DNA of 64,000 bases from an uncultured Ignavibacteria bacterium. Its GTDB lineage: Bacteria > Bacteroidota > Ignavibacteria > UBA10030 > UBA6906. The stretch's first letter is position 1. Each line of letters opens with the position of its first letter. The stretch spans positions 72,604 through 136,603 of the forward strand of contig CAVPBI010000022.1 of NCBI GenBank assembly GCA_963701735.1. Direction: 5' to 3'. Of this stretch, positions 30,649 through 40,836 are shown piece after piece. The position numbers and the translations under genes are program-made. The notes under the pieces are model-generated. The model saw only the letters and a program-made list of their open reading frames with translations. It was not told the origin of the DNA and did no database searches.

Positions 30649-30938
30649 TCTGACTATCGAATGTACCCCGTCGGCTGACGATAGTCAATCGATTACTTCA
30701 ACACTCCGCCAAGCATGTTCTTCACGGTTTGCTTTCTCGCAACTGCCGGCACTACAACAGAAGATCGGCGCGGCACGAAAAGAAGCGTAGAGTATAGCAT
30801 CCCCGGGGGTAGGAATCAAGATTCGTTGCGCATTTTTTCTTGAACCTGAACCTCTTGATTACTATCATGCGGGGCCTCATCGTCCAGCGCCGCACAGACA
30901 ATGCCACCGAGCCCACAACCCCGCTTCGGAAGGTAACA

Positions 30939-32344
30939 ATGATACTCCACCGAAAAGTTCGCACCCGCGGGCATGTGCACGCCCTCCGCATCTGCATCGG
31001 AGCCGCCTGCGGCATCGCCACCCTGATGGCGACAACCGTGAGGGCTCAGGATTCCCATTACTGGAATCTCTTCTACGGCACGTACCCGACCCTGCTGGGA
31101 GGCACGGTGATCGGAAGCCCCTCCGACCTCGCCGGCTCATACTACAATCCGGGCTTCAGGCCCGCCAACAATACAGGGGAATTGCTGCTTGCCGCACAGC
31201 TGTACCAGTACGAACGACTCAGTCTTGAGGGAAATGCAGGCACCAGGATCCCCCTTTCCGGATCCTCGGTCGCAGTCTCCCCCAGCCTGGTTGCCGGTAA
31301 CTTCCCCGGTATGGACACTGCCTCGACGGACAGGTTCACGTATTCCCTCCTGGCGCGCCAGCATGTGAATTTCGATATCGAAGGCAGGATCACTACGGGC
31401 GGGACCTCCAAGGGGACCGCGAATTCGTCGGAGCTGATCCTGAACCAGAATCTCTCGGAATACTGGGCCGGTTTCACCTGGACCCGCCAGATCAACCCGA
31501 CCTGGAGCGCAGGCATCACGCAACTATGTTGCGTACCGTTCCCAGACTCAGCGCCTCGCGCTTTCAATCCGGCAGTATGACGATACCACCTCCGCAACGT
31601 CCGCCCTGAGCTACACGAACCTCATCGACTATTACCATGTGCGGCTCCTCTGGAAACTCGGCGTAGGATACAGAGACGGAACGATTCTCGGCAGGGGCCA
31701 CCGTTACCACGCCCAGCCTCTCTCTGCTCGGTTCCGGCGAGTACTATCTCGATGAGGGCCTTGAAGGGTACCCACCCGAGCCAACGTTCTTCGCGGCCAG
31801 CAGCCAGAAGGAGCTCACCCCGACATACCGCTCGTCATGGGCGGTCGGCGCCGGGCTTGCATACACGTTTGATGACGTCAAGGTCTATTTCAGCGCCGAG
31901 TGGTACGCACCCGTTTCCCGGTATCACATTCTGGACACACAGGACTTCACGGCGGCCAGCACCGGCAATCCGGTGTCAACTGCGGTGGTGCAGGAGTTGC
32001 GCCCCGTCTTCAACTACGGCGGCGGCGTGGAGATCTTCCCCGGCCAGCCGTGGTCTTTCCTCGTGAGCTTCGTCACCGATCAGTCAGCGGTCGATCCCAA
32101 CGTGGAAAACACAACCTCCTTCTCCGCCTGGGATCTGTACCACATCGCTGGCGGGGGAATCGCCACGTTTGGCCGGTACCGGCTGACGCTGGGGGGATCC
32201 ATCACGGTCGGGAGCGGAAAGGCGCGGACATTGTCCGAGCTGGCCGGCCTGATAGGAGAAACCACAGGCCTCGTCAAGTCAACAGCGTTTGAGGGCAACT
32301 ATGTTCGGGGTCAGTTGATCGCGGCCCTGAGCGTCGCGCTGTAG
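30939..32344 (+). CDS. Putative secreted outer-membrane protein (FadL/OMPP1-like?), frame disrupted at about 31560 and 31970
   Basis: Signal peptide MILHRK…ACGIATLMATTVRAQD. The continuous open frame is spread over three listed ORFs: 30840-31580, an unlisted middle segment, and 31973-32344. Confidence 0.4.
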
Positions 32345-32473
32345 CGCCGACGTGATCCGATTCCTCTCCCGCACGTCGCCCGGTCCCACCAAATATGGCG
32401 ATGCCGGGGCTCGATGTCCGAGCCCCGGCATTTCTGTTTCCATCCGTCAGAGTGATCGGAGGTCTGCGGGAGC

Positions 32474-33358
32474 CTATGTCTCCAGAAACGGAATCGTCAC
32501 CACCACGGCATTCCCCGTCCCCTCATACAACAGGTCCATCGCAGCCCTGGTCAACGCAATCCCCCGCCCGTGATTGTCAAAGACCCTGGCCTCATCGAAG
32601 TCGAGGTACTTCGCGGAGTCAAACCCGGGGCCGCTATCCTCGATGCGAATCGTCAGCTTGTCCGGCTCCCTGACGACCTCAACCCTGACCGTCTTCCCGG
32701 CATTCTCGGGAAGCGTAAGCCTCCGGTCGACCTCCTTGTGCCAGATCCCGTCATTCAGAAGGTCCGTTTTCTCGTCGTACGTGATCCCCAGATTGCCGTG
32801 CTCGATGGCGTTGATCAAGATCTCGTGGATGCCCATGGCACGAGCCGGGTTAGGCGTCGCGTTCGCGATCCAGAGAGCGAGGCGCTCCGCCTCCTTGAGC
32901 GTCCGCAAGAGGAACACCCCGCTCTGCAACATGCCGAACGGGTTCTGGCACCCGGCAAGGTTCGCGAGCAGCGACTCCTTGTACGAAAAGTCCTCCACCG
33001 CAGCGCGGATAATCGCGTGGAGCACCTTGTCGTCCGCCGATTTCGCAAGGAAATAGAATGCGCCCGCGTCTATCCCCTCTCGAATGTGCGCGTCCGACGG
33101 CGAATCGGTCTGCATAATCACCGGCGTCTTCTTCAGCGTGGCGTGACCCTTCAGCCAGAGGAGCGTGGACAGGCCGCTTTCGCCCCGGTTCTGCCAGTCG
33201 AGCACGATGGCTGTAATCTGCTCGGGATGCCGCTCCACAAGATCCTCCGCCTCCTGCACCCGCCTGACCGGGAGGACAGTGTACCCCTCCGCCTTGATCC
33301 CGGCACTCATCCTGGTCCGGGTCTGATCATCCTCGCAGACAACAAGCACTGACGACAT
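32474..33358 (-). CDS. Response-regulator receiver domain fused to RsbW/SpoIIAB-like GHKL ATPase (serine-kinase-type HATPase_c); no HisKA domain
   Basis: REC: MSSVLVVCEDD…IVLDW…VIMQTD…FLAKS. GHKL: N-box HEILINAIEHGN, G1 IEDSGPGFD, G2 GRGIAL. Confidence 0.75.
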   Translation of the reverse strand: MSSVLVVCEDDQTRTRMSAGIKAEGYTVLPVRRVQEAEDLVERHPEQITAIVLDWQNRGESGLSTLLWLKGHATLKKTPVIMQTDSPSDAHIREGIDAGAFYFLAKSADDKVLHAIIRAAVEDFSYKESLLANLAGCQNPFGMLQSGVFLLRTLKEAERLALWIANATPNPARAMGIHEILINAIEHGNLGITYDEKTDLLNDGIWHKEVDRRLTLPENAGKTVRVEVVREPDKLTIRIEDSGPGFDSAKYLDFDEARVFDNHGRGIALTRAAMDLLYEGTGNAVVVTIPFLET

Positions 33359-33387
33359 ACAGGTGCACCCTTCGTAAATCGGAACGG

Positions 33388-34407
33388 TCAGCCGCCCGAG
33401 CCCAGCAGCTCGAGCTGCCAGCGATTCCGTGCTCCGGCCGGGAGGAACGGGTGCAGCGCAAGCATCCCCGTCTTCCCGATCGACCTTTCAAGAAAATCCA
33501 TCTCCGCCAGCTTCTCCCTGACTTCCGGGTCGGGTTCCGGAACGAAGCCGGCCTCCCGCATCAGCATGACAGCCTTCGCGCTGATGGAGAGCTCAACCTG
33601 CAGTCGCAGCAGGCACAGCATATCCGCGACGATTTCGTTCGGGAACCGCTCCTGCAACGTTTGCAGGTACTGGCCGACGTGGGTTTCGGTGAGCACGCCC
33701 GTCGTGATCATCTCCAGCAGATTCTGGTCCGTGTCGAACCCGACGCCAAGCCACTCCTGCGTGCTCTTCTCGCTGAACTTGAACACGATCGCCATCACTG
33801 CCGGCACGCCGACCACCGTGGCGAATGCGGACTGGACGGGCGATACAAAGAAATGATTGAAGACGCTGTGGATGATGATCGCGCCGATCAGCCCCGGAAG
33901 GATCGCGCCACCGAGGGTGCCGGATTTCCGCTCCAGCACCGACCGGCCGAGGACCGCCACCATCGCCGTGACGCCCCCGTGCATGAGCGCCGTGCCGAGG
34001 CCGCGCACAAGCCACAGCAGCGGGTTGGTCTCGGTCACCGCGAACAGGTAGGTGATGTTCTCCACCAGCGCAAAGCCGGTACCGACAGCAAAACCGTAGA
34101 CGGCAGCATCAACGAGGAACCCGATCCTCTTCTTCCAGAGAAGCCAGATGGGCAACGCCGCCTTGAGACACTCTTCGAGGACGGGAGCGATGTATCTGGA
34201 GTACGACTCCGGCGACACTCCCACGCCGCCCGTCACGGTCCTCGCCATCACAAACGCGATCAGCGCCGCAGCAACGCCAGCCCCCACCGCCACGAGCACG
34301 GATCGAAACGTCACGAGCTTGTAGCTGTCGAGATAGACCAAGCCTCCCAGGAAGAGGACGACCGGGAGAAGGCTGACCAGCGCCGCGCCGATGGGGCTTT
34401 GCATCAC
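33388..34407 (-). CDS. PrsW-family intramembrane metalloprotease (anti-sigma-factor site-1 protease type)
   Basis: PrsW motifs EExxK (PVLEECLK), FxxxEN (GFALVENITY), MHGG and HxxxN (HSVFNHF). Polytopic. Confidence 0.7.
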   Translation of the reverse strand: MMQSPIGAALVSLLPVVLFLGGLVYLDSYKLVTFRSVLVAVGAGVAAALIAFVMARTVTGGVGVSPESYSRYIAPVLEECLKAALPIWLLWKKRIGFLVDAAVYGFAVGTGFALVENITYLFAVTETNPLLWLVRGLGTALMHGGVTAMVAVLGRSVLERKSGTLGGAILPGLIGAIIIHSVFNHFFVSPVQSAFATVVGVPAVMAIVFKFSEKSTQEWLGVGFDTDQNLLEMITTGVLTETHVGQYLQTLQERFPNEIVADMLCLLRLQVELSISAKAVMLMREAGFVPEPDPEVREKLAEMDFLERSIGKTGMLALHPFLPAGARNRWQLELLGSGG

Positions 34408-37365
34408 AGGATCTTGAGCGATGCCATGAATTCTCCCGTCCCCCGCCGGTCAGGCCCGCCTGCCACGGCGTACCCGATGGAAAGGACCGAGCTCAGGTTC
34501 GAAAACAGCACAAGCTTGACGTCGGCCTGCACGCCCACGTTTGCGCTCACCGTCCGCAGATCATCGTCCTGCAGATTCGTGACGAGGCCGGTCCCGAAGA
34601 ACGCCAGCCGCGCCCATGTAACGTACATGCCGGGGAAACCTGCCCGCCGGAACCGGAGCGGAGGAGGATTCCATTCGACCATCGCCTTCGTGAACGTCTT
34701 GCCGGGGATCTCATCGATCTCCACACCCGGAAACCTGAGCGCGCTCCCTGTACCGGCGCTCCGAGCCGTGGTCAACCCAGTTGTTGCCGAAGCCTCCGAA
34801 GAAGAAGTTCGCGAACGGATCCGCCGAGCTCCCCGCCGCATAGCCCGCGGCGGTCCTGAGCCACACAGAGGAATGCTGGAACAGCGCCGGAACACCGATG
34901 TCGAATGTCCCGGACACGAGCGGGTTGAACCGCTTCTCCGAAAGGTACGCGTATCCGACAAGAGACGCCAGGACTCCCTTCTCCGCATCCACCGCCCCCA
35001 GCGAGCGGACCACGCGCGAGTACTTCAGGCGGCCGAAGAACGTGAGAAATTCGCTCACCGCCGTGCCGATGTTCTGGAAGGCCGGGAGACGCTCGAGGTC
35101 CGAGTATCCGCTCACCCTCAACGTATACTCAAGGTTCGACGGACGATCGTTGATGAGCACATCCGTGTACCCCACGCTCAGCTGGTAGCCGCGCCTGCTC
35201 GATTTGTACGGTCCGAACAGGTCGTAGAAATCTGACACGTTGTAGGTCGCGCTCACGTCCCACTGCCAGTACCGGTATCTGAGGATCCCGTGAAACTGCT
35301 CCTTCAGATCGAAGCTGGGGTTCGGCGTGTACGCGAGTGAGAAGTCGATATTGTGGAGGAGCAGCGGATCGAAGAAATCCATCCGGACGCCGCCGCCAAT
35401 CGATTCCTTGTAACCGTGGATAATGGGATACATCGATCGCAAACCGATGGCGCCCAGACCTTCATAGTCTCCCGTGGCAACGATCAGCGAGTCAATGTTG
35501 ATGCGCGCCGCGGACGGTGGCGGGAGCTTCCACGACTGCACTTCCGGATACTTCTCGGCGATCTGTTGCCCCAGGTAGGTCACGGCGCTGACATTCTCGG
35601 TGGTCGTAACCGGCACCTGCACGGGGATGAAGCCTTCGGTCGTGAACTCGAAGGCGACGAGCGAATCGTCCGACATCGGCACCGGCCGGAACAGACCGCG
35701 TTCCGTATTGGTGATCCACTCCATCACGCGCCGCCCGGTATCGTACCGGACGATGTTGGAAACGCCGGTGTAGTAGGTCGAGCCGTACAGGTATCGCCCA
35801 TCGGGAGACCACACGAAATTGAGGGGCGCCGTGTGCTCGAAGTCGTGCAGCACATCGTAGTCGGCCCCTCCGGTCAGCAGCGTGTCCACCCAGATCCGCA
35901 CAAGGCGCTGCCTGCCGCTGATCTCCATCATCCCCGCGGCGATCGACTTGCCGTCGGGCGAGATATCCAGGTCGTACAGATCCACGCCGTAGTTCAACGG
36001 AAGGATCTCCTGCCAGCGGGCATACGGATACGGAATCCTGACCAGCCTGGAAACTCCGTCGTGATGCTGGACCCCCCAGAGCGCGCTGTCCGCCCGGCAG
36101 AACGTCAGGTCCCCGATCCGGCAGTTCTTCAGGAGCAGGCGGGATGCGCCTGTCCGGATGTCGAGGGCGTTCAGATCCCTCCATCCCTTGCTGTTCTTCG
36201 TCGTGTAAAAGAAGGTGCCGGAAGAGGGGTCGAACGCCGTGGAGGCCACGGTATACAGCGACGGCGTGGGCAGGTCGCTCACCCGCTCGACCGTTCCGTC
36301 CGAGAGATGGATGGAGCTGATGCTTGCGAGCACGCCCGGCGCGTTCATGCCCAGATACAGCGAGCGCGTAGCCGGGTCGAAGTGGGCGCGCGAGACGGCG
36401 CCGACCGGCTTCGCCGTGATCGGACGGAGGGGCGTGACGGGATACTGCCGGACTGCCGCAAGATTCGCCTCCTGGAACGTACGCTCGGCCGCGATCCATT
36501 CGGACCACACATCATCGATGTCCCTGCCATAGACCTCTTCGAACTGTCCGGCGAACGACGCGTCGGACTCCGGACCGCGCTTGAACCAGTCGATGATCGT
36601 CTGCGGCCCGTAGTGGTCCGCAAGGTAGCTGACGAATCGCGTTCCGTAGAGATACGAGTTCGCCCCGATCTGAAAATCGACGGTGGTCCCTTCCGACTCC
36701 AGACCGACGTAATCATAGAAGTACGAGCTGTCCCGGACCATCGTCCGGAACACCATCTCGTCCCATCCGTTCTGCGCGCGGCCGATCCCGCCCGACATCC
36801 ACGTCTCCATGAACACGGCGACGCCTTCGTGGTACCATCGCGGGGAGTATTTCCTCGGGTTGGTCAGATAGGTATAGGCGATCGAGACGGGCTCATCATC
36901 CGTGGGCGACACCTTGCCGAGGAACGCGCTGCGCCAGAAGCTGTCCGATCCGCCCGGCTTGTCACTGCGCGACGATATGCACGAGCTCGTGGCCGATCAC
37001 CCAGTTGATGCGCTCGTTGGTCGGCGAGGTCTCATACGTGTATTCGTACGGTGAGATCCCGAGGATCATGTAGTTGATCGGAACGCTTGTCGCGCCCGCG
37101 TAGCCGTAGTCGTCGTAGTCCTGCAGGTACACGACAACGGGTTCGGTAGGAGTGTACTCGAAGAGCGTGTGGTGGAACGAGAGTGCGTTCTGGAAACTGC
37201 GCATGAGATGGGGGATGATGAAACGGTGCTCATCAGCGTAGTACACCAGGCGCATCGATCCCGTTCGGACCGTATAGAAGTCGGCCGCGCGAACGGCCGT
37301 CGGGACCGCAGGGGCCACCAGCATGAGGCACCACAGCACCCAGAGGGCCCGGCGCCTATGCGACA
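34404..37365 (-). CDS. Large secreted multidomain protein: N-terminal HExxH zinc-metallopeptidase, PD40/TolB-like beta-propeller repeats, C-terminal Omp85/surface-antigen-like beta-barrel; frame disrupted at about 36940, 34900 and 34720
   Basis: HELVHIVAQ is in ORF 36962-37444. Repeats …ISPDGKSIAAG… and …WSPDGRYLYGS… are in ORF 34711-36912. A C-terminal barrel-like segment ends in …MASLKIL (ORF 34404-34988). A possible GTG start encodes VSHRRRALWVLWCLMLVAPAVPTAVRA. Confidence 0.6.
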
Positions 37366-37479
37366 CAACGGGAGTCGTGGTCACAGGTTTGGATATGGGG
37401 TCATGGAGGTGGAAACAGCACGAGGAGTGGCGCTGGCGCGCCACTCCCCGAGGGAAACCTACAGGATTGTCACACAGGA

Positions 37480-38822
37480 TCAGTCGTTGCCGCGGGCCGA
37501 GCGCTCGGCGTCGGGTGCGGTGCGGGCCTCGAACTCAGCATTCTTGCCTTCGACGGCGCTGCGCATCTCAACCGGCACCTTCGCCCCGAGGAACGCACGC
37601 TCTGCCACGGGAAGCGAGCCGAGCACTTCCGCCTTCTGGCTCACCGGCATACGATCGAACGACTTCAGCCGCTCTTCAACCGACATGCTGGCAGCGAGAA
37701 CCGCGCGCCCTTCGGCGGGAAGCCGGTCCAGCACAGCAAGCCTCTCGGCTCTGCGGCAGCCTGTCGAGAGCGCTGATCTTCGCTTCGGCCGGCATCCGAT
37801 CCCACATGCTGACCTTGGCTTCGGTGGGCATCCTGTCGAGCGCCTTGGCACGCTCGGTGTTGACCATCTTCTCGGCTACGAGCGCCTTGGCTTCGGTCGA
37901 CATGTTGTCGAGCGCCGAGGCGCGCTCTGCAACGCTGCTGGTCGCCGCCAGCTGGGCTTTGGCTTCCGCCGGGGCATAATTCTGAAGCGCAGCCGCCTTG
38001 TCGTTCATCGCAAGACGATCAAGATACGCCGCCTTCTCCGTCGCCGGCAGGCTGGCAAAGGCCTTGACCCGGTCCGCCATCGCCAGACGGTCGACCAGGC
38101 TCGCCTTCTCGTTGACCGGCATTGCGGCCAGGGCCCTGGTCCGATCGGTCATCGCCAGGCGGTCCCACATCGCAACGCGCTCAGTGGCCGACGTTGAGGC
38201 ATACAGGGCAGCACGCTGCGTGCTTCCCATCCGGTCCATCAACGCCGTCCGCTCTTCCACGCTCATACGGTCGGCCAGGGCGGCCTTGTCGCTGGCGCTC
38301 AGCTGCGCGAACCGCTGCGCGGCCGCATCGGTGGCATCGGCGCCGGCGATCTGGACGTCGTTCTCGGTGATCTGCCCGGAACGGTATTTCTTCACGCTGC
38401 CGATCGTTCCGGCCGCCTCGTTTTCAAACGGGGACGGATAGAAGAATGTGAAGTAGGCGAGCGTGGCGATCCCGAGTGCGATCCCCGCCAAGGGCGATCC
38501 GGTTCCGCTTGGCGTTGCTACGGTTGCTCATAACAGCCTCCACTGGAGATGGTGTGTGTGCAAGAGAATTCAAAATCTGTTGGAGCATGGTCCGTCGGCG
38601 CGGCACCGGCATCCGTTCGACTGCCCGCATCACCGACGGCTTCAGTGTCGGAGGCGCGGCAGCCGGCTGGCTCAGGGCGCCCGCGATCGCCTTCATGTCA
38701 TTGTACAGTCTCGCAACCTCGGCATCCTCCCGCACCAGCACCTGTACCCTGGCACTCTCCGCGGGACTGTTGATGCCGTCAACCTCCGACTGCACAAGGT
38801 CTCGTATCGTCTGATCAATCAT
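37480..38822 (-). CDS. Anti-sigma factor (membrane-spanning) with periplasmic 12-aa tandem-repeat domain; frame disrupted at about 38460 and 37860
   Basis: The start overlaps the ECF sigma gene stop. N-terminal cytoplasmic part MIDQTIRDLVQSEVDG…. Transmembrane helix IALGIATLAYFTFFY. Then more than 20 repeats of [LM]DR[LM]xxxE[KR]Axx. Confidence 0.55.
37560..38290 (-). repeat. Intragenic approximately 36-bp tandem repeats (coding 12-aa units) within the anti-sigma gene
   Basis: DNA units such as ggcttcggtgggcatcctgtcgagcgccttggcacgctc and ggcttcggtcgacatgttgtcgagcgccgaggcgcgctc recur. The protein shows …ALADRMSVEERTALMDRMGSTQRAALY…LDRLAMNDKAAAL…LDRMPTEAKVSMWDRMPAEAKISALDRLP. Confidence 0.7.
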
Positions 38823-39351
38823 GGCCCGATAATCCTTCCCGACTCATTATCTCTCGCAACATCGCCCGCGCGCTGAACAACCGCGACTTCACCGTCTTTG
38901 CCGGAATCCCGAGGATCGCTCCGATCTCCTCGTACGGCAACTCCTGCACATACTTCAGGACAAGGATCGAGCGATGATGGACGTCCAGCTTCGAGAGGCA
39001 CTTCTGGACGAGCTCCGGAAGGTCCGGGCTTTCCGCGTGCCCGTCTGCCGACTCGAGCCCTTCATCCAGCGCCTGCATCCGTGACCGTCGCTCAATCGCA
39101 TTGACTGACTCATTGTGCGCTATGCGGTAGATCCAGCTGAAGAACTTGTACCTGGGATCGAACGTGCTGAGCTTTTCGTACGCCTTGAGAAACGCCGCCT
39201 GCGCAACATCCTCAGCCTCTTCCTTCACTCCGAGCATCCGCCAGGCGATCGTGAACACCTGTGCCTGGTATCGCTCCACCAGCAGCCCGAAGGCATCCCG
39301 ATCGCCCTCAAGGGTCCGCTGGACCAGCCCGTTGTCGTCCAGGTGTATCAT
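38815..39351 (-). CDS. RNA polymerase ECF-type sigma-70 factor
   Basis: Region 2 …FGLLVERYQAQVFTIAWRMLG…. Region 4 …LVLKYVQELPYEEIGAILGIPAKTVKSRL. Confidence 0.85.
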   Translation of the reverse strand: MIHLDDNGLVQRTLEGDRDAFGLLVERYQAQVFTIAWRMLGVKEEAEDVAQAAFLKAYEKLSTFDPRYKFFSWIYRIAHNESVNAIERRSRMQALDEGLESADGHAESPDLPELVQKCLSKLDVHHRSILVLKYVQELPYEEIGAILGIPAKTVKSRLFSARAMLREIMSREGLSGHD

Positions 39352-39381
39352 AAGTACAGGCGTGACCCGGAAAAGTTGGTC

Positions 39382-39672
39382 CTATTCTTCCTCAATCCTG
39401 AAAATCGTGTCGAATCTGGCGATCCTGAAGACGTCGCGGATGAGCTTGTTCATGTGGGTCAGAACCAGCTCGTTTCCACCTGATTTCAAGCGTTTCTGAG
39501 TCTTCAGGAGGATCCCCAGGCCCAGGCTGGAGATGTAGTCCAGGTTCTTCATGTCAACCCGGCTGGTCGTCGTGACACGGTCGAGGACGGCATCCGCTTC
39601 GGCCACGCGGGACGCGTCGAATCTGCCCGTGAGGACGATCTCCCCATCTTCCCTCTGGGTAATCGTGAACAT
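39382..39672 (-). CDS. STAS-domain anti-sigma-factor antagonist (SpoIIAA/RsbV-like)
   Basis: 96 aa. …VDMKNLDYISSLGLGILL… carries a candidate phospho-serine in the DYISS motif. Confidence 0.75.
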   Translation of the reverse strand: MFTITQREDGEIVLTGRFDASRVAEADAVLDRVTTTSRVDMKNLDYISSLGLGILLKTQKRLKSGGNELVLTHMNKLIRDVFRIARFDTIFRIEEE

Positions 39673-39673
39673 G

Positions 39674-40120
39674 CTACTGCCTCAGACGTTTGACAAGCGT
39701 GATGGTGCTGCGGCGGTCTTCATAGGCGTACCGAACGTCGTCCAGCATGTGCCGCGACAGGTGAATGCCCAGGCCGCCCGGCGTTCGCTCCTCCAGCGAC
39801 AGCGACACGTCCACCGGACCGGTGGCGGTGACGTCGAAGGAATTCACGTCACGCGCGACGAGGTACACGACGAGCGCTTCCCCTTCCAGCCGGACCCCGA
39901 CGGTGACGTCGCGATCGCTCTCCGGATTGTACTTCACGAAATTCGTGAAGAACTCTTCCACCGCGAGCGTGAGAGCGTACGAGGTGGCCGGGTCGGGAGC
40001 GTGCCGGGCAAACTCCCCGTCGAGGAACGCAAACACCTCGTCGAGGGCTGCGACGGACTTCCTGAAGTCTTTCTCCATGATGGGATCTCGGCACCAGCCT
40101 GCGCGTGCCCGGTCGCTCAA
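39674..40120 (-). CDS. Anti-sigma regulatory factor, serine-protein kinase (RsbW/SpoIIAB-like HATPase_c)
   Basis: 148 aa. …ALTLAVEEFFTNFVKYN… (N-box-like) and …ERTPGGLGIHL… (G2). Lies 2 bp downstream of the STAS gene and its start overlaps the SIMPL gene stop by 4 bp. Confidence 0.7.
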   Translation of the reverse strand: MSDRARAGWCRDPIMEKDFRKSVAALDEVFAFLDGEFARHAPDPATSYALTLAVEEFFTNFVKYNPESDRDVTVGVRLEGEALVVYLVARDVNSFDVTATGPVDVSLSLEERTPGGLGIHLSRHMLDDVRYAYEDRRSTITLVKRLRQ

Positions 40121-40836
40121 TCGACGAGATAAAACTCGATGCTCGTGACGACGCGGATGAGCTTCACGTCGGGTGAATTCGCATCCCGGTTGCTGATCGA
40201 AAAGTACCCCTGCGTCGCGGAGCGGATCTTCCCGACCTCGCTCCCCGAGTCCGTCGCGAATTTCTCCGCCGCCGCCCGTGCGTCCTTCGTCGCCGATTCT
40301 ATCATCTCAGGCTTGATCACATTGAGCGCGGTATAGATGAACTCCGTCGGCGTCTGCCAGTTGTCAGCGGTCAACGCGACGCCCTTCCCCACCAGCGCGC
40401 CCGACTTCTCCATCGTTTGCTTTACACGATCCACATTGTCGGAGCGCGTCGTCACCGTCACGTCCGCGACATACCGGTACCGGGTCACAACGTTGGAGCC
40501 GAACGCCTGCGTGTCGTTGATGCGCGGGACCGAGTAGGAAATCGATTCTTGCTGGAAGCCCGCGTCGCGGAGGAACGAGGTCACCGCCGCCCGTCCCGCA
40601 TCGATGTCACGCTGCAGTGCGCCGAGATCGTTCCCGGTCACCCTGAACGTGATCGGCCAGATGGCAAGGTCGGCCTTGACTTCCCGCTCGGCCAGCCCTT
40701 TGACCGTCACGAACCGGTCGGACGCCCGGCCTTTGTAGATGCCGAGTCCGATCGCAATACCAGCACAGACAATGCACAGCCCTAGAATGACGTGAGGGGT
40801 AAGACCTTTTGTTTCCACAGCTTCCTCCGGACGCAT
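40117..40836 (-). CDS. SIMPL-domain protein (DUF541)
   Basis: 239 aa with an N-terminal transmembrane/signal segment. …ADLAIWPITFRVTGNDLGALQRDIDAGRAAVTSFL… is typical of the SIMPL family. Confidence 0.65.
   Translation of the reverse strand: MRPEEAVETKGLTPHVILGLCIVCAGIAIGLGIYKGRASDRFVTVKGLAEREVKADLAIWPITFRVTGNDLGALQRDIDAGRAAVTSFLRDAGFQQESISYSVPRINDTQAFGSNVVTRYRYVADVTVTTRSDNVDRVKQTMEKSGALVGKGVALTADNWQTPTEFIYTALNVIKPEMIESATKDARAAAEKFATDSGSEVGKIRSATQGYFSISNRDANSPDVKLIRVVTSIEFYLVD

What the first reader, a model, noticed from the sequence alone, without database searches (positions are those of the whole stretch)
32474..40836. Eight-gene minus-strand operon fusing three envelope-signalling paradigms (ECF sigma/anti-sigma, RsbW-STAS partner switch, PrsW site-1 protease) with a REC-kinase fusion and a giant outer-membrane peptidase
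The gene order is SIMPL, RsbW-like kinase, STAS antagonist, ECF sigma, repeat-containing anti-sigma, HExxH-peptidase/PD40/Omp85-barrel, PrsW, REC+GHKL-kinase. Junctions are 4-bp overlaps or gaps under 40 bp, which implies co-transcription. Partner-switching modules usually control group-3 sigma factors, whereas here one sits beside a group-4 (ECF) sigma. PrsW normally degrades RsiW-type anti-sigmas. A receiver domain fused directly to an RsbW-type serine kinase suggests phosphorylation-gated partner switching. Together this looks like a composite, undescribed cell-envelope stress circuit.
Basis: partly seen in the sequence, partly recalled or inferred. Interest (0 to 1): 0.7.

Follow-up and report, generated by a model that had tools for sequence, protein, structure and literature searches.

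The report
Conserved sigma-factor, protease and partner-switch gene module
The eight genes are there in the stated order, but only the inner six or seven form an uncharacterised signalling module conserved across thousands of genomes of Bacteroidota-related phyla, and it is probably not transcribed as one unit.

Summary
The gene order and domain calls are correct: SIMPL, RsbW-like, STAS, ECF sigma, anti-sigma, HExxH/propeller/Omp85 protein, PrsW, REC+GHKL kinase. However, in this window the anti-sigma and the large peptidase are each broken by two +1 frameshifts. Both are intact in a 94%-identical relative, and codon-position patterns show no relaxed constraint, so assembly error is the more likely cause.

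A survey of about 80 metagenome loci shows a conserved core: RsbW-like, STAS, a SigW-like ECF sigma, an anti-sigma, a membrane-anchored repeat protein (fused to the anti-sigma here), an Omp85-anchored zinc peptidase and a long-form PrsW. SIMPL and the REC-kinase are additions found only in a narrow clade (0 of 30 loci with enough flank).

A conserved AAC-N16-TGTA promoter abuts the sigma start codon, and a terminator-like hairpin separates the anti-sigma from the peptidase. A single eight-gene transcript is therefore unlikely.

The best reading is sigmaW/RsiW/PrsW-style regulated proteolysis joined to an outer-membrane protease, with a partner switch supplying cytoplasmic input. ECF-linked partner switches and REC-linked RsbW-type kinases already have precedents. 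The combination is new. No paper found in the library describes it. It is a new variant of known kinds.

The parts
40117..40836 (-). SIMPL/DUF541 protein (239 aa) with an N-terminal membrane anchor. It is a lineage-specific accessory gene, not part of the conserved core.
   Evidence: Pfam SIMPL E=1e-19. Present upstream of the module only in L001 and L168. Found in 0/30 distant loci.
39674..40078 (-). RsbW-like GHKL protein (134 aa, start MEKDF...), the serine-kinase/anti-sigma type. The N-box Asn and G2 box are present. The G1 box reads D-V-N-S-F-D where Bacillus RsbW has D-E-G-D-S-F-D, so the G1 glycine is replaced.
   Evidence: Pfam HATPase_c_2 E=4e-13. Best NCBIfam model is RsbW, far below cutoff. 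Alignment of 32 module homologs. Conserved in 21/30 loci.
39382..39672 (-). STAS anti-sigma-factor antagonist (96 aa). The serine of the YISS(A/L)GLG motif aligns with the phosphorylated Ser58 of SpoIIAA and is invariant.
   Evidence: Pfam STAS_2 E=1e-10. NCBIfam ant_ant_sig 53.9 bits against a cutoff of 53.45. Alignment of 38 homologs.
39355..39379 (-). Promoter-like motif CCAACTTTT-N12-TGTA, ending 3 nt before the ECF ATG. This is ECF-type AAC-N16-xGTA architecture and implies a leaderless or nearly leaderless mRNA.
   Evidence: The same motif abuts the ECF start in 36/44 related loci, against 2.9% of random windows. It is the only match in the 64-kb window. It is absent upstream of the RsbW-like, peptidase and PrsW genes.
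38815..39351 (-). ECF (group 4) sigma factor, 178 aa, SigW-like.
   Evidence: Pfam Sigma70_r2 and r4_2. Best NCBIfam models are SigW, at 135 and 124 bits, below the equivalog cutoffs.
37480..38822 (-). Anti-sigma factor (446 aa in L001). It has an N-terminal cytoplasmic anti-sigma-like region, one TM helix with a conserved GTIG..KYR juxtamembrane motif, and about 270 aa of periplasmic repeats with 12/24-residue periodicity. In the window it is broken by +1 insertions near 38482 and 37739-37750. It overlaps the ECF stop codon by 8 bp.
   Evidence: Three-frame translation. Indel map against L001. TM helix and periodicity. MgtE_N-like repeats, E=5e-14. The TM-plus-motif protein lies directly upstream of the peptidase in 46/49 loci and is a separate gene in L086, L167 and L170.
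37421..37450 (-). Terminator-like hairpin (13-bp stem, 10 G-C pairs, T-rich tail) just after the anti-sigma stop codon.
   Evidence: Consensus scan. Hairpins with different stem sequences occupy the same position in L001, L168, L084, L086 and L167. Present in 26/73 loci against 1.8% background.
34404..37324 (-). Outer-membrane zinc metallopeptidase (972 aa in L001). It has a signal peptide, an HExxH (H112/E113/H116) zincin-like domain, a TolB-like beta-propeller and a C-terminal Omp85-type barrel. In the window it is broken by +1 insertions at 36969 and 34744.
33388..34404 (-). Long-form PrsW intramembrane protease (338 aa). The EExxK, FxxxH-type and HxxxN motifs are invariant. It carries a conserved helical cytoplasmic C-terminal extension of about 130 aa that has no Pfam match.
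32474..33358 (-). Receiver domain fused to a GHKL (HATPase_c_2) kinase-like domain (294 aa). It is a clade-specific accessory gene.
   Evidence: Pfam Response_reg and HATPase_c_2. D54, K106, the N-box, DxGxGF and HGRGIA are invariant. The PrsW-to-REC-kinase adjacency is seen only in L001, L169 and one Logan contig. It is absent in L168, L084, L086, L167 and L170 and in 0/30 survey loci.

Best explanation
The locus is one instance of a widespread, uncharacterised envelope-signalling module of FCB-group bacteria (Bacteroidota, Ignavibacteria, Gemmatimonadota, Latescibacterota, Krumholzibacteriota, Eisenbacteria). It is arranged in three blocks: [rsbW-like, stas], then P_ecf driving [SigW-like ecf, anti-sigma, TM-anchored periplasmic repeat protein] followed by a terminator, then [Omp85-anchored zinc peptidase, long-form prsW].

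Shown:
- The gene content and its conservation across loci.
- The domain and fold assignments.
- Intact catalytic motifs in both proteases.
- A conserved phosphorylatable serine in STAS.
- A conserved ECF-type promoter abutting the sigma start codon, and a hairpin upstream of the peptidase.

Inferred mechanism:
- The membrane anti-sigma holds the sigma factor inactive.
- An envelope signal triggers cleavage of the anti-sigma or repeat-protein ectodomain. PrsW would be the site-1 protease, by analogy with RsiW/PrsW in Bacillus. The periplasm-facing, outer-membrane-anchored metallopeptidase would act as sensor, first cutter or trimmer.
- A site-2 protease encoded elsewhere then releases the sigma factor, which amplifies its own leaderless operon.
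- The RsbW-like/STAS pair adds a cytoplasmic input. In other lineages this pair is completed by an adjacent GAF- or REC-PP2C phosphatase. Its most likely target is the same sigma factor.
- In this narrow clade no PP2C is encoded nearby. The REC-GHKL kinase placed after prsW is a plausible substitute that phosphorylates STAS under two-component control. SIMPL is an unrelated or peripheral addition.

The four frame breaks in this window are more likely assembly errors than decay.
For: - Conservation.
- SigW-like sigma.
- PrsW motifs and fold.
- Peptidase architecture, with the N-terminal domains placed where Omp85 proteins carry periplasmic POTRA domains.
- STAS serine.
- PP2C gene within 150 bp of the core in about 17/82 loci, with GAF or REC input domains.
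- Promoter motif. Terminator hairpins.
- Fused versus split anti-sigma and repeat protein, a Rosetta-stone-type link.
- Codon-position pattern of substitutions against L001. In the broken genes the third-position fraction is 0.76 (peptidase), 0.64 (anti-sigma) and 0.66 (hyp491), and the ratio of non-synonymous to synonymous changed codons is 0.35-0.60. These lie within the range of the intact neighbours.
- The PrsW/RsiW/RasP/sigmaW pathway is established in Bacillus (PMC10202637).
Against: - No experiment exists for any member of the module.
- PrsW here fails the NCBIfam PrsW equivalog cutoff (26 against 225 bits), and the anti-sigma shows no detectable homology to RsiW or to Pfam anti-sigma domains.
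- The peptidase-prsW pair lies behind a terminator and has no sigma-type promoter, so it could be a functionally separate machine.
- The target of the RsbW-like protein is unknown. In Bordetella and Vibrio such pairs act on non-sigma targets (PMC8256260).
- The G1-box glycine of the RsbW-like protein is replaced, so kinase activity is not assured.
- The REC-kinase family normally sits next to hybrid histidine kinases, and only 6/80 of its loci have a STAS gene within 5 kb.
- Six uncompensated +1 insertions fall in only 3 of 18 syntenic genes, and none is in a homopolymer. This is odd for random error.
Confidence: 0.5

Rival explanations
1. The Omp85-peptidase and PrsW form an independent trans-envelope proteolysis or quality-control pair. 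It would process or clear envelope proteins or the repeat protein. It would be merely co-located with the sigma system, or be an output of it, and would not be the apparatus that activates the sigma factor.
For: Terminator-like hairpins separate it from the sigma/anti-sigma unit in 26/73 loci. No sigma-type motif lies upstream of the peptidase or prsW. The peptidase-prsW pair is the tightest linkage, at 55/60 loci. In a few loci it occurs without a detectable ECF gene (L137, L152). Heinz & Lithgow speculated that other Omp85-fused hydrolases have periplasmic quality-control roles (PMC4104836).
Against: ECF is present in 25/30 loci and the TM-motif protein in 46/49 loci in the same orientation. 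The sigma is SigW-like, and the only characterised PrsW function is anti-sigma cleavage (PMC10202637).
Confidence: 0.25
2. The RsbW-like/STAS pair, and here the REC-kinase, do not act on the ECF sigma at all. They would control a different target, for example the conserved cytoplasmic C-terminal domain of PrsW or an unrelated process, as the non-canonical BtrW/BtrV and SypE/SypA systems do.
For: The pair lies upstream of, and outside, the sigma-dependent promoter. It is divergently oriented in about 8 loci. A dedicated membrane anti-sigma already exists. Long-form PrsW carries a conserved cytoplasmic domain of unknown function in every member. Non-sigma targets are documented for such pairs (PMC8256260).
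Against: Nothing tested here excludes this reading. The classical role of the HATPase_c_2/STAS pair is sigma sequestration, and the pair is conserved beside an ECF gene in 21-23 of 30 loci.
Confidence: 0.3
3. In this particular genome the module is decaying. The anti-sigma and the peptidase are pseudogenes, so the circuit is non-functional or constitutively on in this strain.
For: Four uncompensated +1 insertions fall in exactly these two genes, and two more fall in a neighbouring gene. The other 14 detected syntenic genes are intact, and none of the insertions lies in a homopolymer run.
Against: Substitutions against L001 remain concentrated at third codon positions (peptidase 76%, non-synonymous/synonymous changed codons 0.35), as in the intact genes. 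All downstream frames stay open and 84-96% identical at the protein level. Several closest relatives come from long contigs typical of long-read assemblies, where indel errors are common; this last point is an inference.
Confidence: 0.35
4. The eight genes form a single operon and one integrated circuit.
For: All eight are on the same strand with short junctions. Opposite-strand genes flank the cluster on both sides in L001.
Against: There is an internal conserved promoter and an internal terminator-like hairpin. SIMPL and the REC-kinase are absent from all but the closest relatives.
Confidence: 0.1

Closest known systems
Bacillus subtilis sigmaW / RsiW / PrsW / RasP regulated intramembrane proteolysis
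   Same: An ECF sigma whose best-scoring models are SigW. A single-pass membrane anti-sigma encoded immediately downstream and translationally coupled. A PrsW-family protease with the catalytic motifs. A promoter architecture of AAC-N16-xGTA that resembles the sigmaW consensus TGAAAC-N16-CGTA; that consensus is recalled from memory and was not verified here.
   Different: Here prsW is genetically linked to the sigma locus. It is a long form with a cytoplasmic extension of about 130 aa. The anti-sigma has no zinc-binding HxxxCxxC motif and no detectable RsiW homology. The host has two membranes. An Omp85-anchored metallopeptidase, a TM repeat protein and a partner-switch pair are added.
RsbW/RsbV/RsbU-type partner switching, including the ECF-adjacent BtrU/BtrW/BtrV of Bordetella
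   Same: A small HATPase_c_2 protein and a single-domain STAS with the conserved serine are encoded side by side. A PP2C with an input domain is adjacent in many related loci. As in Bordetella, the pair sits beside an ECF sigma gene.
   Different: No PP2C is found in this window. The G1-box glycine is replaced in the RsbW-like protein. The target is unknown. The pair co-occurs with a membrane anti-sigma and two proteases.
Receiver-linked RsbW-type kinases: SypE (Vibrio fischeri), HsbR (Pseudomonas), CrsR (Shewanella); REC-PP2C RsbY (Bacillus cereus)
   Same: A receiver domain with the phospho-acceptor Asp is fused to an RsbW-type GHKL domain. This implies two-component control of a serine kinase or anti-sigma activity. 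A STAS protein is encoded in the same cluster here.
   Different: The protein has two domains only and no PP2C domain. Its family (more than 1220 members) usually neighbours a GAF-HisKA-HATPase-REC-Hpt hybrid kinase and rarely a STAS gene (6/80 loci). Its linkage to this module is confined to one narrow clade. CrsR and RsbY are cited from memory.
'WD40-Omp85' subfamily of the Omp85/TpsB superfamily (Heinz & Lithgow 2014, PMC4104836)
   Same: A TolB-like beta-propeller placed N-terminal to an Omp85 barrel in place of POTRA domains. No function is assigned.
   Different: That paper does not mention the N-terminal HExxH domain or any gene context. Whether its cluster is the same family was not tested here.
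E. coli sigmaE / RseA / DegS / RseP envelope stress response
   Same: The logic is the same: outer-membrane or periplasmic state is reported to an ECF sigma through sequential proteolysis of a single-pass anti-sigma.
   Different: The proteases are unrelated. Here the candidate periplasmic protease is itself anchored in the outer membrane by an Omp85 barrel.

Membership tests
ECF (group 4) sigma-70 factors | Only sigma regions 2 and 4 are present, in a protein of about 170-200 aa | tested here: met
   Pfam Sigma70_r2 (E=1.5e-17) and Sigma70_r4_2 (E=1e-13) in a 178-aa protein. NCBIfam sigma70-ECF 110 bits against a cutoff of 42.9.
SigW equivalog (NCBIfam NF007223 / TIGR02948) | Score above the curated equivalog cutoff | tested here: not met
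   SigW is the best model but scores 135 against 209 bits and 124 against 243 bits. The sigma is SigW-like, not a SigW ortholog.
PrsW family intramembrane protease (Pfam PF13367 / MEROPS M82) | Pfam domain above the gathering score, and the conserved EExxK / FxxxH / HxxxN motifs | tested here: met
PrsW equivalog (NCBIfam NF033739), i.e. the RsiW site-1 protease itself | Score above the equivalog cutoff; cleavage of the cognate anti-sigma | tested here: not met
   26.3 against 225 bits. Cleavage activity cannot be tested with these tools.
Partner-switching module (RsbW/SpoIIAB with RsbV/SpoIIAA and a PP2C) | A GHKL serine kinase/anti-sigma with N, G1 and G2 boxes | tested here: inconclusive
   HATPase_c_2 hit covering the whole profile. 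The N-box Asn and the GGLG G2 box are conserved. The G1 glycine is replaced: D-V-N-S-F-D here and D-V-E-P-F-D in most co-directional homologs, against D-D-G-x-P-F in the divergently oriented subtype.
Partner-switching module (RsbW/SpoIIAB with RsbV/SpoIIAA and a PP2C) | A single-domain STAS antagonist with the phosphorylatable serine | tested here: met
   NCBIfam ant_ant_sig at cutoff, 53.9 against 53.45.
Partner-switching module (RsbW/SpoIIAB with RsbV/SpoIIAA and a PP2C) | A cognate PP2C (SpoIIE/RsbU-type) phosphatase | tested here: not met
   No PP2C ORF in the 64-kb window or in L001. A GAF- or REC-PP2C lies within 150 bp of the core in about 17 of 82 related loci.
Partner-switching module (RsbW/SpoIIAB with RsbV/SpoIIAA and a PP2C) | The kinase sequesters a sigma factor and is displaced by unphosphorylated STAS | not testable with these tools
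   This needs binding and phosphorylation assays or multimer structure prediction.
Omp85/TpsB superfamily | A C-terminal 16-stranded Omp85-type beta-barrel | tested here: met
Omp85/TpsB superfamily | N-terminal POTRA domain(s) | tested here: not met
   The N-terminal part is a helical HExxH domain followed by a TolB-like propeller. No POTRA hit was found.
Zincin (HExxH) metallopeptidases, clan MA | An HExxH motif with a downstream third zinc ligand, and family-level sequence membership | tested here: inconclusive
   H112, E113, H116, E166 and E173 are invariant in 22-30 homologs. Pfam Peptidase_MA_2 and M1 score only E about 6e-3, below cutoff. No relative at sequence level exists in the PDB.
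Receiver-fused RsbW-type kinases (SypE/HsbR/CrsR-like) | A REC domain with the phospho-acceptor Asp and a GHKL domain with an intact ATP-binding site | tested here: met
   D54 and K106 are invariant; D10 and T84 are nearly invariant. N183, D241-x-G-x-G-F and H-G-R-G-I-A are invariant.
Receiver-fused RsbW-type kinases (SypE/HsbR/CrsR-like) | A PP2C phosphatase domain in the same protein and an adjacent STAS partner | tested here: not met
   Only two domains are present in 294 aa. A STAS gene lies within 5 kb in only 6/80 family loci.
Single operon (one transcription unit of eight genes) | No internal promoter or terminator, and co-conservation of all members | tested here: not met
   There is an internal promoter motif and an internal hairpin terminator. 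SIMPL and the REC-kinase are not co-conserved. All of this is in-silico evidence; transcripts were not measured.

The most novel reading that the evidence does not exclude
The Omp85-anchored periplasmic zinc peptidase, the membrane-anchored repeat protein and long-form PrsW together form a trans-envelope proteolytic sensor specific to FCB-group bacteria. It reports outer-membrane state to a SigW-like ECF sigma. The RsbW-like/STAS switch, fed by GAF-PP2C, REC-PP2C or (here) a REC-kinase, gates this proteolysis from the cytoplasm, possibly through the conserved cytoplasmic domain of PrsW rather than by binding the sigma. This would be a new way of wiring a partner switch to regulated intramembrane proteolysis.
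Probability: 0.2. Interest if true: 0.8.

Novelty: new variant of a known kind. Interest (0 to 1): 0.58.

Why it matters
Envelope stress signalling is understood mainly from E. coli (sigmaE/DegS/RseP) and Bacillus (sigmaW/PrsW/RasP). For the large FCB superphylum there is no comparable model. This module has more than 3000 peptidase and more than 3600 PrsW homologs, each at least 50% identical across several phyla. That makes it a strong candidate for a major pathway of this kind.

The module would assign a first context to three things: an uncharacterised Omp85 subfamily, a long-form PrsW, and an ECF sigma flanked by a partner switch. The conserved promoter motif also gives a direct handle for predicting the regulon.

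Tried and rejected
- An exact-sequence look-up of the window's REC-kinase found nothing.
- tblastn of all eight proteins against 80 genome loci anchored on the REC-kinase family found none of the other genes. The one exception was a SIMPL neighbour in L002. This ruled out the REC-kinase as a core member.
- k-mer and regex searches for the ECF promoter motif upstream of the RsbW-like, peptidase and PrsW genes were at background. There is therefore no evidence that these genes have their own sigma-dependent promoters.
- Neighbour clustering initially suggested one conserved family downstream of PrsW. It turned out to be a single-linkage mix of signalling proteins (Ser/Thr kinases, GAF-PP2C, REC-PP2C, REC).
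- The window contains no PP2C and no GAF-HisKA-REC-Hpt hybrid kinase.
- A profile search of the peptidase family against PDB sequences gave no relative.
- The afdb50 fold library was unavailable, so no UniProt names or cultured hosts were obtained.
- The ECF classification paper (PMC7826278) does not mention STAS, RsbW or PrsW contexts in its main text, and its supplements are not held.
- The sigmaW regulon paper held in the library does not print the consensus, so that comparison rests on memory.
- No tRNA genes are present in the window.

Full report
**Observation.** ORF listing and Pfam scans confirm the stated gene order on the minus strand.
- SIMPL: 40117-40836.
- HATPase_c_2 (RsbW-type) protein: 39674-40078.
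- STAS: 39382-39672.
- ECF sigma: 38815-39351.
- PrsW: 33388-34404.
- REC+HATPase_c_2 protein: 32474-33358.

Junctions are short: 38 bp, 1 bp, 30 bp, an 8-bp overlap, 35 to about 155 bp, a 1-4 bp overlap, and 29 bp.

The anti-sigma is spread over three frames (38424-38822, 37676-38491, 37480-37851). The large peptidase is also spread over three frames (36962-37444, 34711-36912, 34404-34988).

**Frame breaks.** The closest relative found is L001, from a 2.47-Mb contig, 94.5% identical in DNA over 8570 bp. It carries all eight genes in the same order, with an intact 446-aa anti-sigma and an intact 972-aa peptidase.

- The window differs from L001 by uncompensated +1 insertions near 38482, 37739-37750, 36969 and 34744. 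Two more lie in a neighbouring gene, at 31521 and 31679.
- Only 3 of the 18 L001 genes compared are affected. Fourteen others are intact in the window, and one, a DUF308 gene, is absent from it.
- None of the insertions lies in a homopolymer run.
- Substitutions against L001 in the broken genes remain concentrated at third codon positions. For the peptidase the third-position fraction is 0.76 and the ratio of non-synonymous to synonymous changed codons is 0.35. These values are within the range of the intact neighbours.

I therefore favour assembly error over pseudogenisation, at roughly 65:35. Only the raw reads can settle it.

**What is conserved.** I anchored on the REC-kinase family, which has more than 1220 homologs, and fetched 80 genome loci from Ignavibacteria, Bacteroidota, Acidobacteriota and many Proteobacteria.
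- None has a homolog of PrsW, the peptidase, the ECF sigma, STAS or the RsbW-like protein within 10 kb.
- The usual neighbour is a GAF-HisKA-HATPase-REC-Hpt hybrid kinase.
- A STAS gene lies within 5 kb in only 6/80 loci.

I then anchored on the peptidase. It has more than 3174 homologs, more than 50% identical across phyla, and almost none carries a Pfam hit. This gave 80 metagenome loci plus several look-ups.
- PrsW lies directly downstream on the same strand in 55/60 loci.
- With at least 5 kb of upstream flank, ECF is present in 25/30, STAS in 23/30 and RsbW-like in 21/30.
- SIMPL and the REC-kinase are each present in 0/30.
- A membrane protein with a conserved TM helix and GTIG..KYR motif, followed by a variable periplasmic region, lies immediately upstream of the peptidase in 46/49 loci.
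- In L086, L167 and L170 this is a gene separate from a short anti-sigma of about 250-260 aa. In L170 and L086 its periplasmic part consists of MgtE_N-like helical repeats. In the window's clade the two are fused.
- A PP2C phosphatase with a GAF or REC input domain lies within 150 bp of the core in about 17/82 loci. There is none in this window.
- SIMPL accompanies the module only in L001 and L168.
- The REC-kinase follows PrsW only in L001, L169 and one short contig. It is missing in L168, whose peptidase is 84% identical.

Named homologs come from Bacteroidota, Gemmatimonas, Chlorobiaceae, Latescibacteria, Krumholzibacteriota and Eisenbacteria MAGs.

**Transcription signals.**
- A motif, CCAACTTTT-N12-TGTAWTT, ends 3-5 nt before the ECF start codon in 36/44 loci, against 2.9% of random windows.
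- It lies at 39355-39379 here and is the only match in the 64-kb window.
- Its AAC-N16-xGTA layout is ECF-like, and its position implies a leaderless or nearly leaderless mRNA.
- The motif is not found upstream of the RsbW-like, peptidase or PrsW genes.
- A 13-bp GC-rich hairpin with a T-rich tail follows the anti-sigma stop at 37450-37421.
- Hairpins with different stem sequences occupy the same position in L001, L168, L084, L086 and L167.
- Strict terminator-like hairpins occur upstream of the peptidase in 26/73 loci, against 1.8% of random windows.

The locus therefore looks like three units: [SIMPL?-rsbW-stas], [ecf-anti-sigma] and [peptidase-prsW-(REC-kinase)].

**Proteins.**
- *ECF sigma.* It scores best against SigW models, below the equivalog cutoffs.
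- *STAS.* It keeps an invariant serine at the position of SpoIIAA S58.
- *RsbW-like protein.* It keeps the N-box Asn and the G2 box. In most co-directional loci the G1 glycine is replaced by Val. PP2C genes beside such loci (L105, L116, L117, L129, L130) suggest that a phosphorylation cycle still operates.
- *REC-kinase.* It has a canonical receiver pocket and intact N, G1 and G2 boxes.

**Mechanism.** By analogy with sigmaW/RsiW/PrsW/RasP (PMC10202637), the most likely function is regulated proteolysis of the anti-sigma or repeat-protein ectodomain. PrsW would act together with the outer-membrane-anchored peptidase. The sigma factor would then amplify its own operon. The partner switch would supply a second, cytoplasmic input, whose sensory module varies by lineage: GAF-PP2C, REC-PP2C or, here, the REC-kinase. 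These steps are inferred.

The rivals are as follows.
- The protease pair is a separate machine.
- The partner switch targets something other than the sigma factor.
- This copy of the locus is decaying.

**Comparison and novelty.**
- ECF-adjacent partner switchers exist in Bordetella. BtrU/V/W are covered in PMC8256260, but that paper does not mention BtrS. That btrS encodes an ECF sigma and lies beside them is from my own knowledge.
- Receiver-linked RsbW-type kinases are also described: SypE (PMC8256260, PMC10120452) and HsbR (PMC6482189).
- A 'WD40-Omp85' subfamily was catalogued without function or gene context (PMC4104836).
- I found no paper in the library describing the combination of a SigW-like ECF sigma, PrsW, an Omp85-peptidase and a partner switch.

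I rate it a new variant of known kinds, of moderate to high interest because of its breadth. The eight-gene operon as proposed is not supported.

Noticed in passing
window 30838-32374 (+ strand): The homolog of a 491-aa hypothetical protein of L001 is also split over three frames, by two +1 insertions at 31521 and 31679. It is the only other frame-broken gene among the 18 L001 genes compared.
   Followed up: partly
window 38482: The first anti-sigma frameshift falls exactly at the junction between the cytoplasmic anti-sigma part and the TM-plus-repeat part. This is the same point at which other lineages encode two separate genes. It is probably coincidence, but it would recreate a split arrangement.
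   Followed up: no
window 32367-32374, compared with L001 10993-11627: L001 has a DUF308 gene of about 635 bp between the REC-kinase and the next gene. It is absent from the window, so the two differ by an insertion or deletion.
   Followed up: no
window 32400-32432: A 14-bp GC-rich palindromic hairpin lies just downstream of the REC-kinase stop codon. It looks like a terminator.
   Followed up: no
L002 8447-9085 and 10001-10867: In an Ignavibacteria MAG a SIMPL gene lies divergently next to a REC+HATPase_c_2 homolog. It is the only one of 80 loci in which the two accessory genes of the window are neighbours without the core module.
   Followed up: no
L082 10945-13911; L083 10922-13504: Members of the REC+HATPase_c_2 family are typically followed directly by a GAF-HisKA-HATPase-REC-Hpt hybrid kinase. 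This suggests a dedicated phosphorelay, and the target of the kinase domain is unknown. No such kinase is present in the window.
   Followed up: partly
L170 3901-5865; L167 6668-7846; L086 14111-14854: These are free-standing membrane-anchored periplasmic proteins. L170 and L086 carry MgtE_N-like repeats of about 12 residues, with a highly regular repeating sequence in L170. L167 is helical with no Pfam repeat hit. All share the juxtamembrane motif YPP..D..GTIG...KYR..Q....DV.L.G with the window's anti-sigma.
   Followed up: partly
L086 17416-22682: A giant Pkinase-AAA_16-GAF-SpoIIE protein (1684 aa) lies 2.6 kb from the module on the opposite strand. It may be the phosphatase input in that lineage.
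   Followed up: no
L139, L144, L147, L148, L153, L154, L156, L163: A second arrangement exists in which STAS and the RsbW-like gene are divergently oriented from the ECF gene. In it the RsbW-like protein keeps the canonical G1 glycine (D-D-G-x-P-F), often with a REC-PP2C after PrsW.
   Followed up: partly
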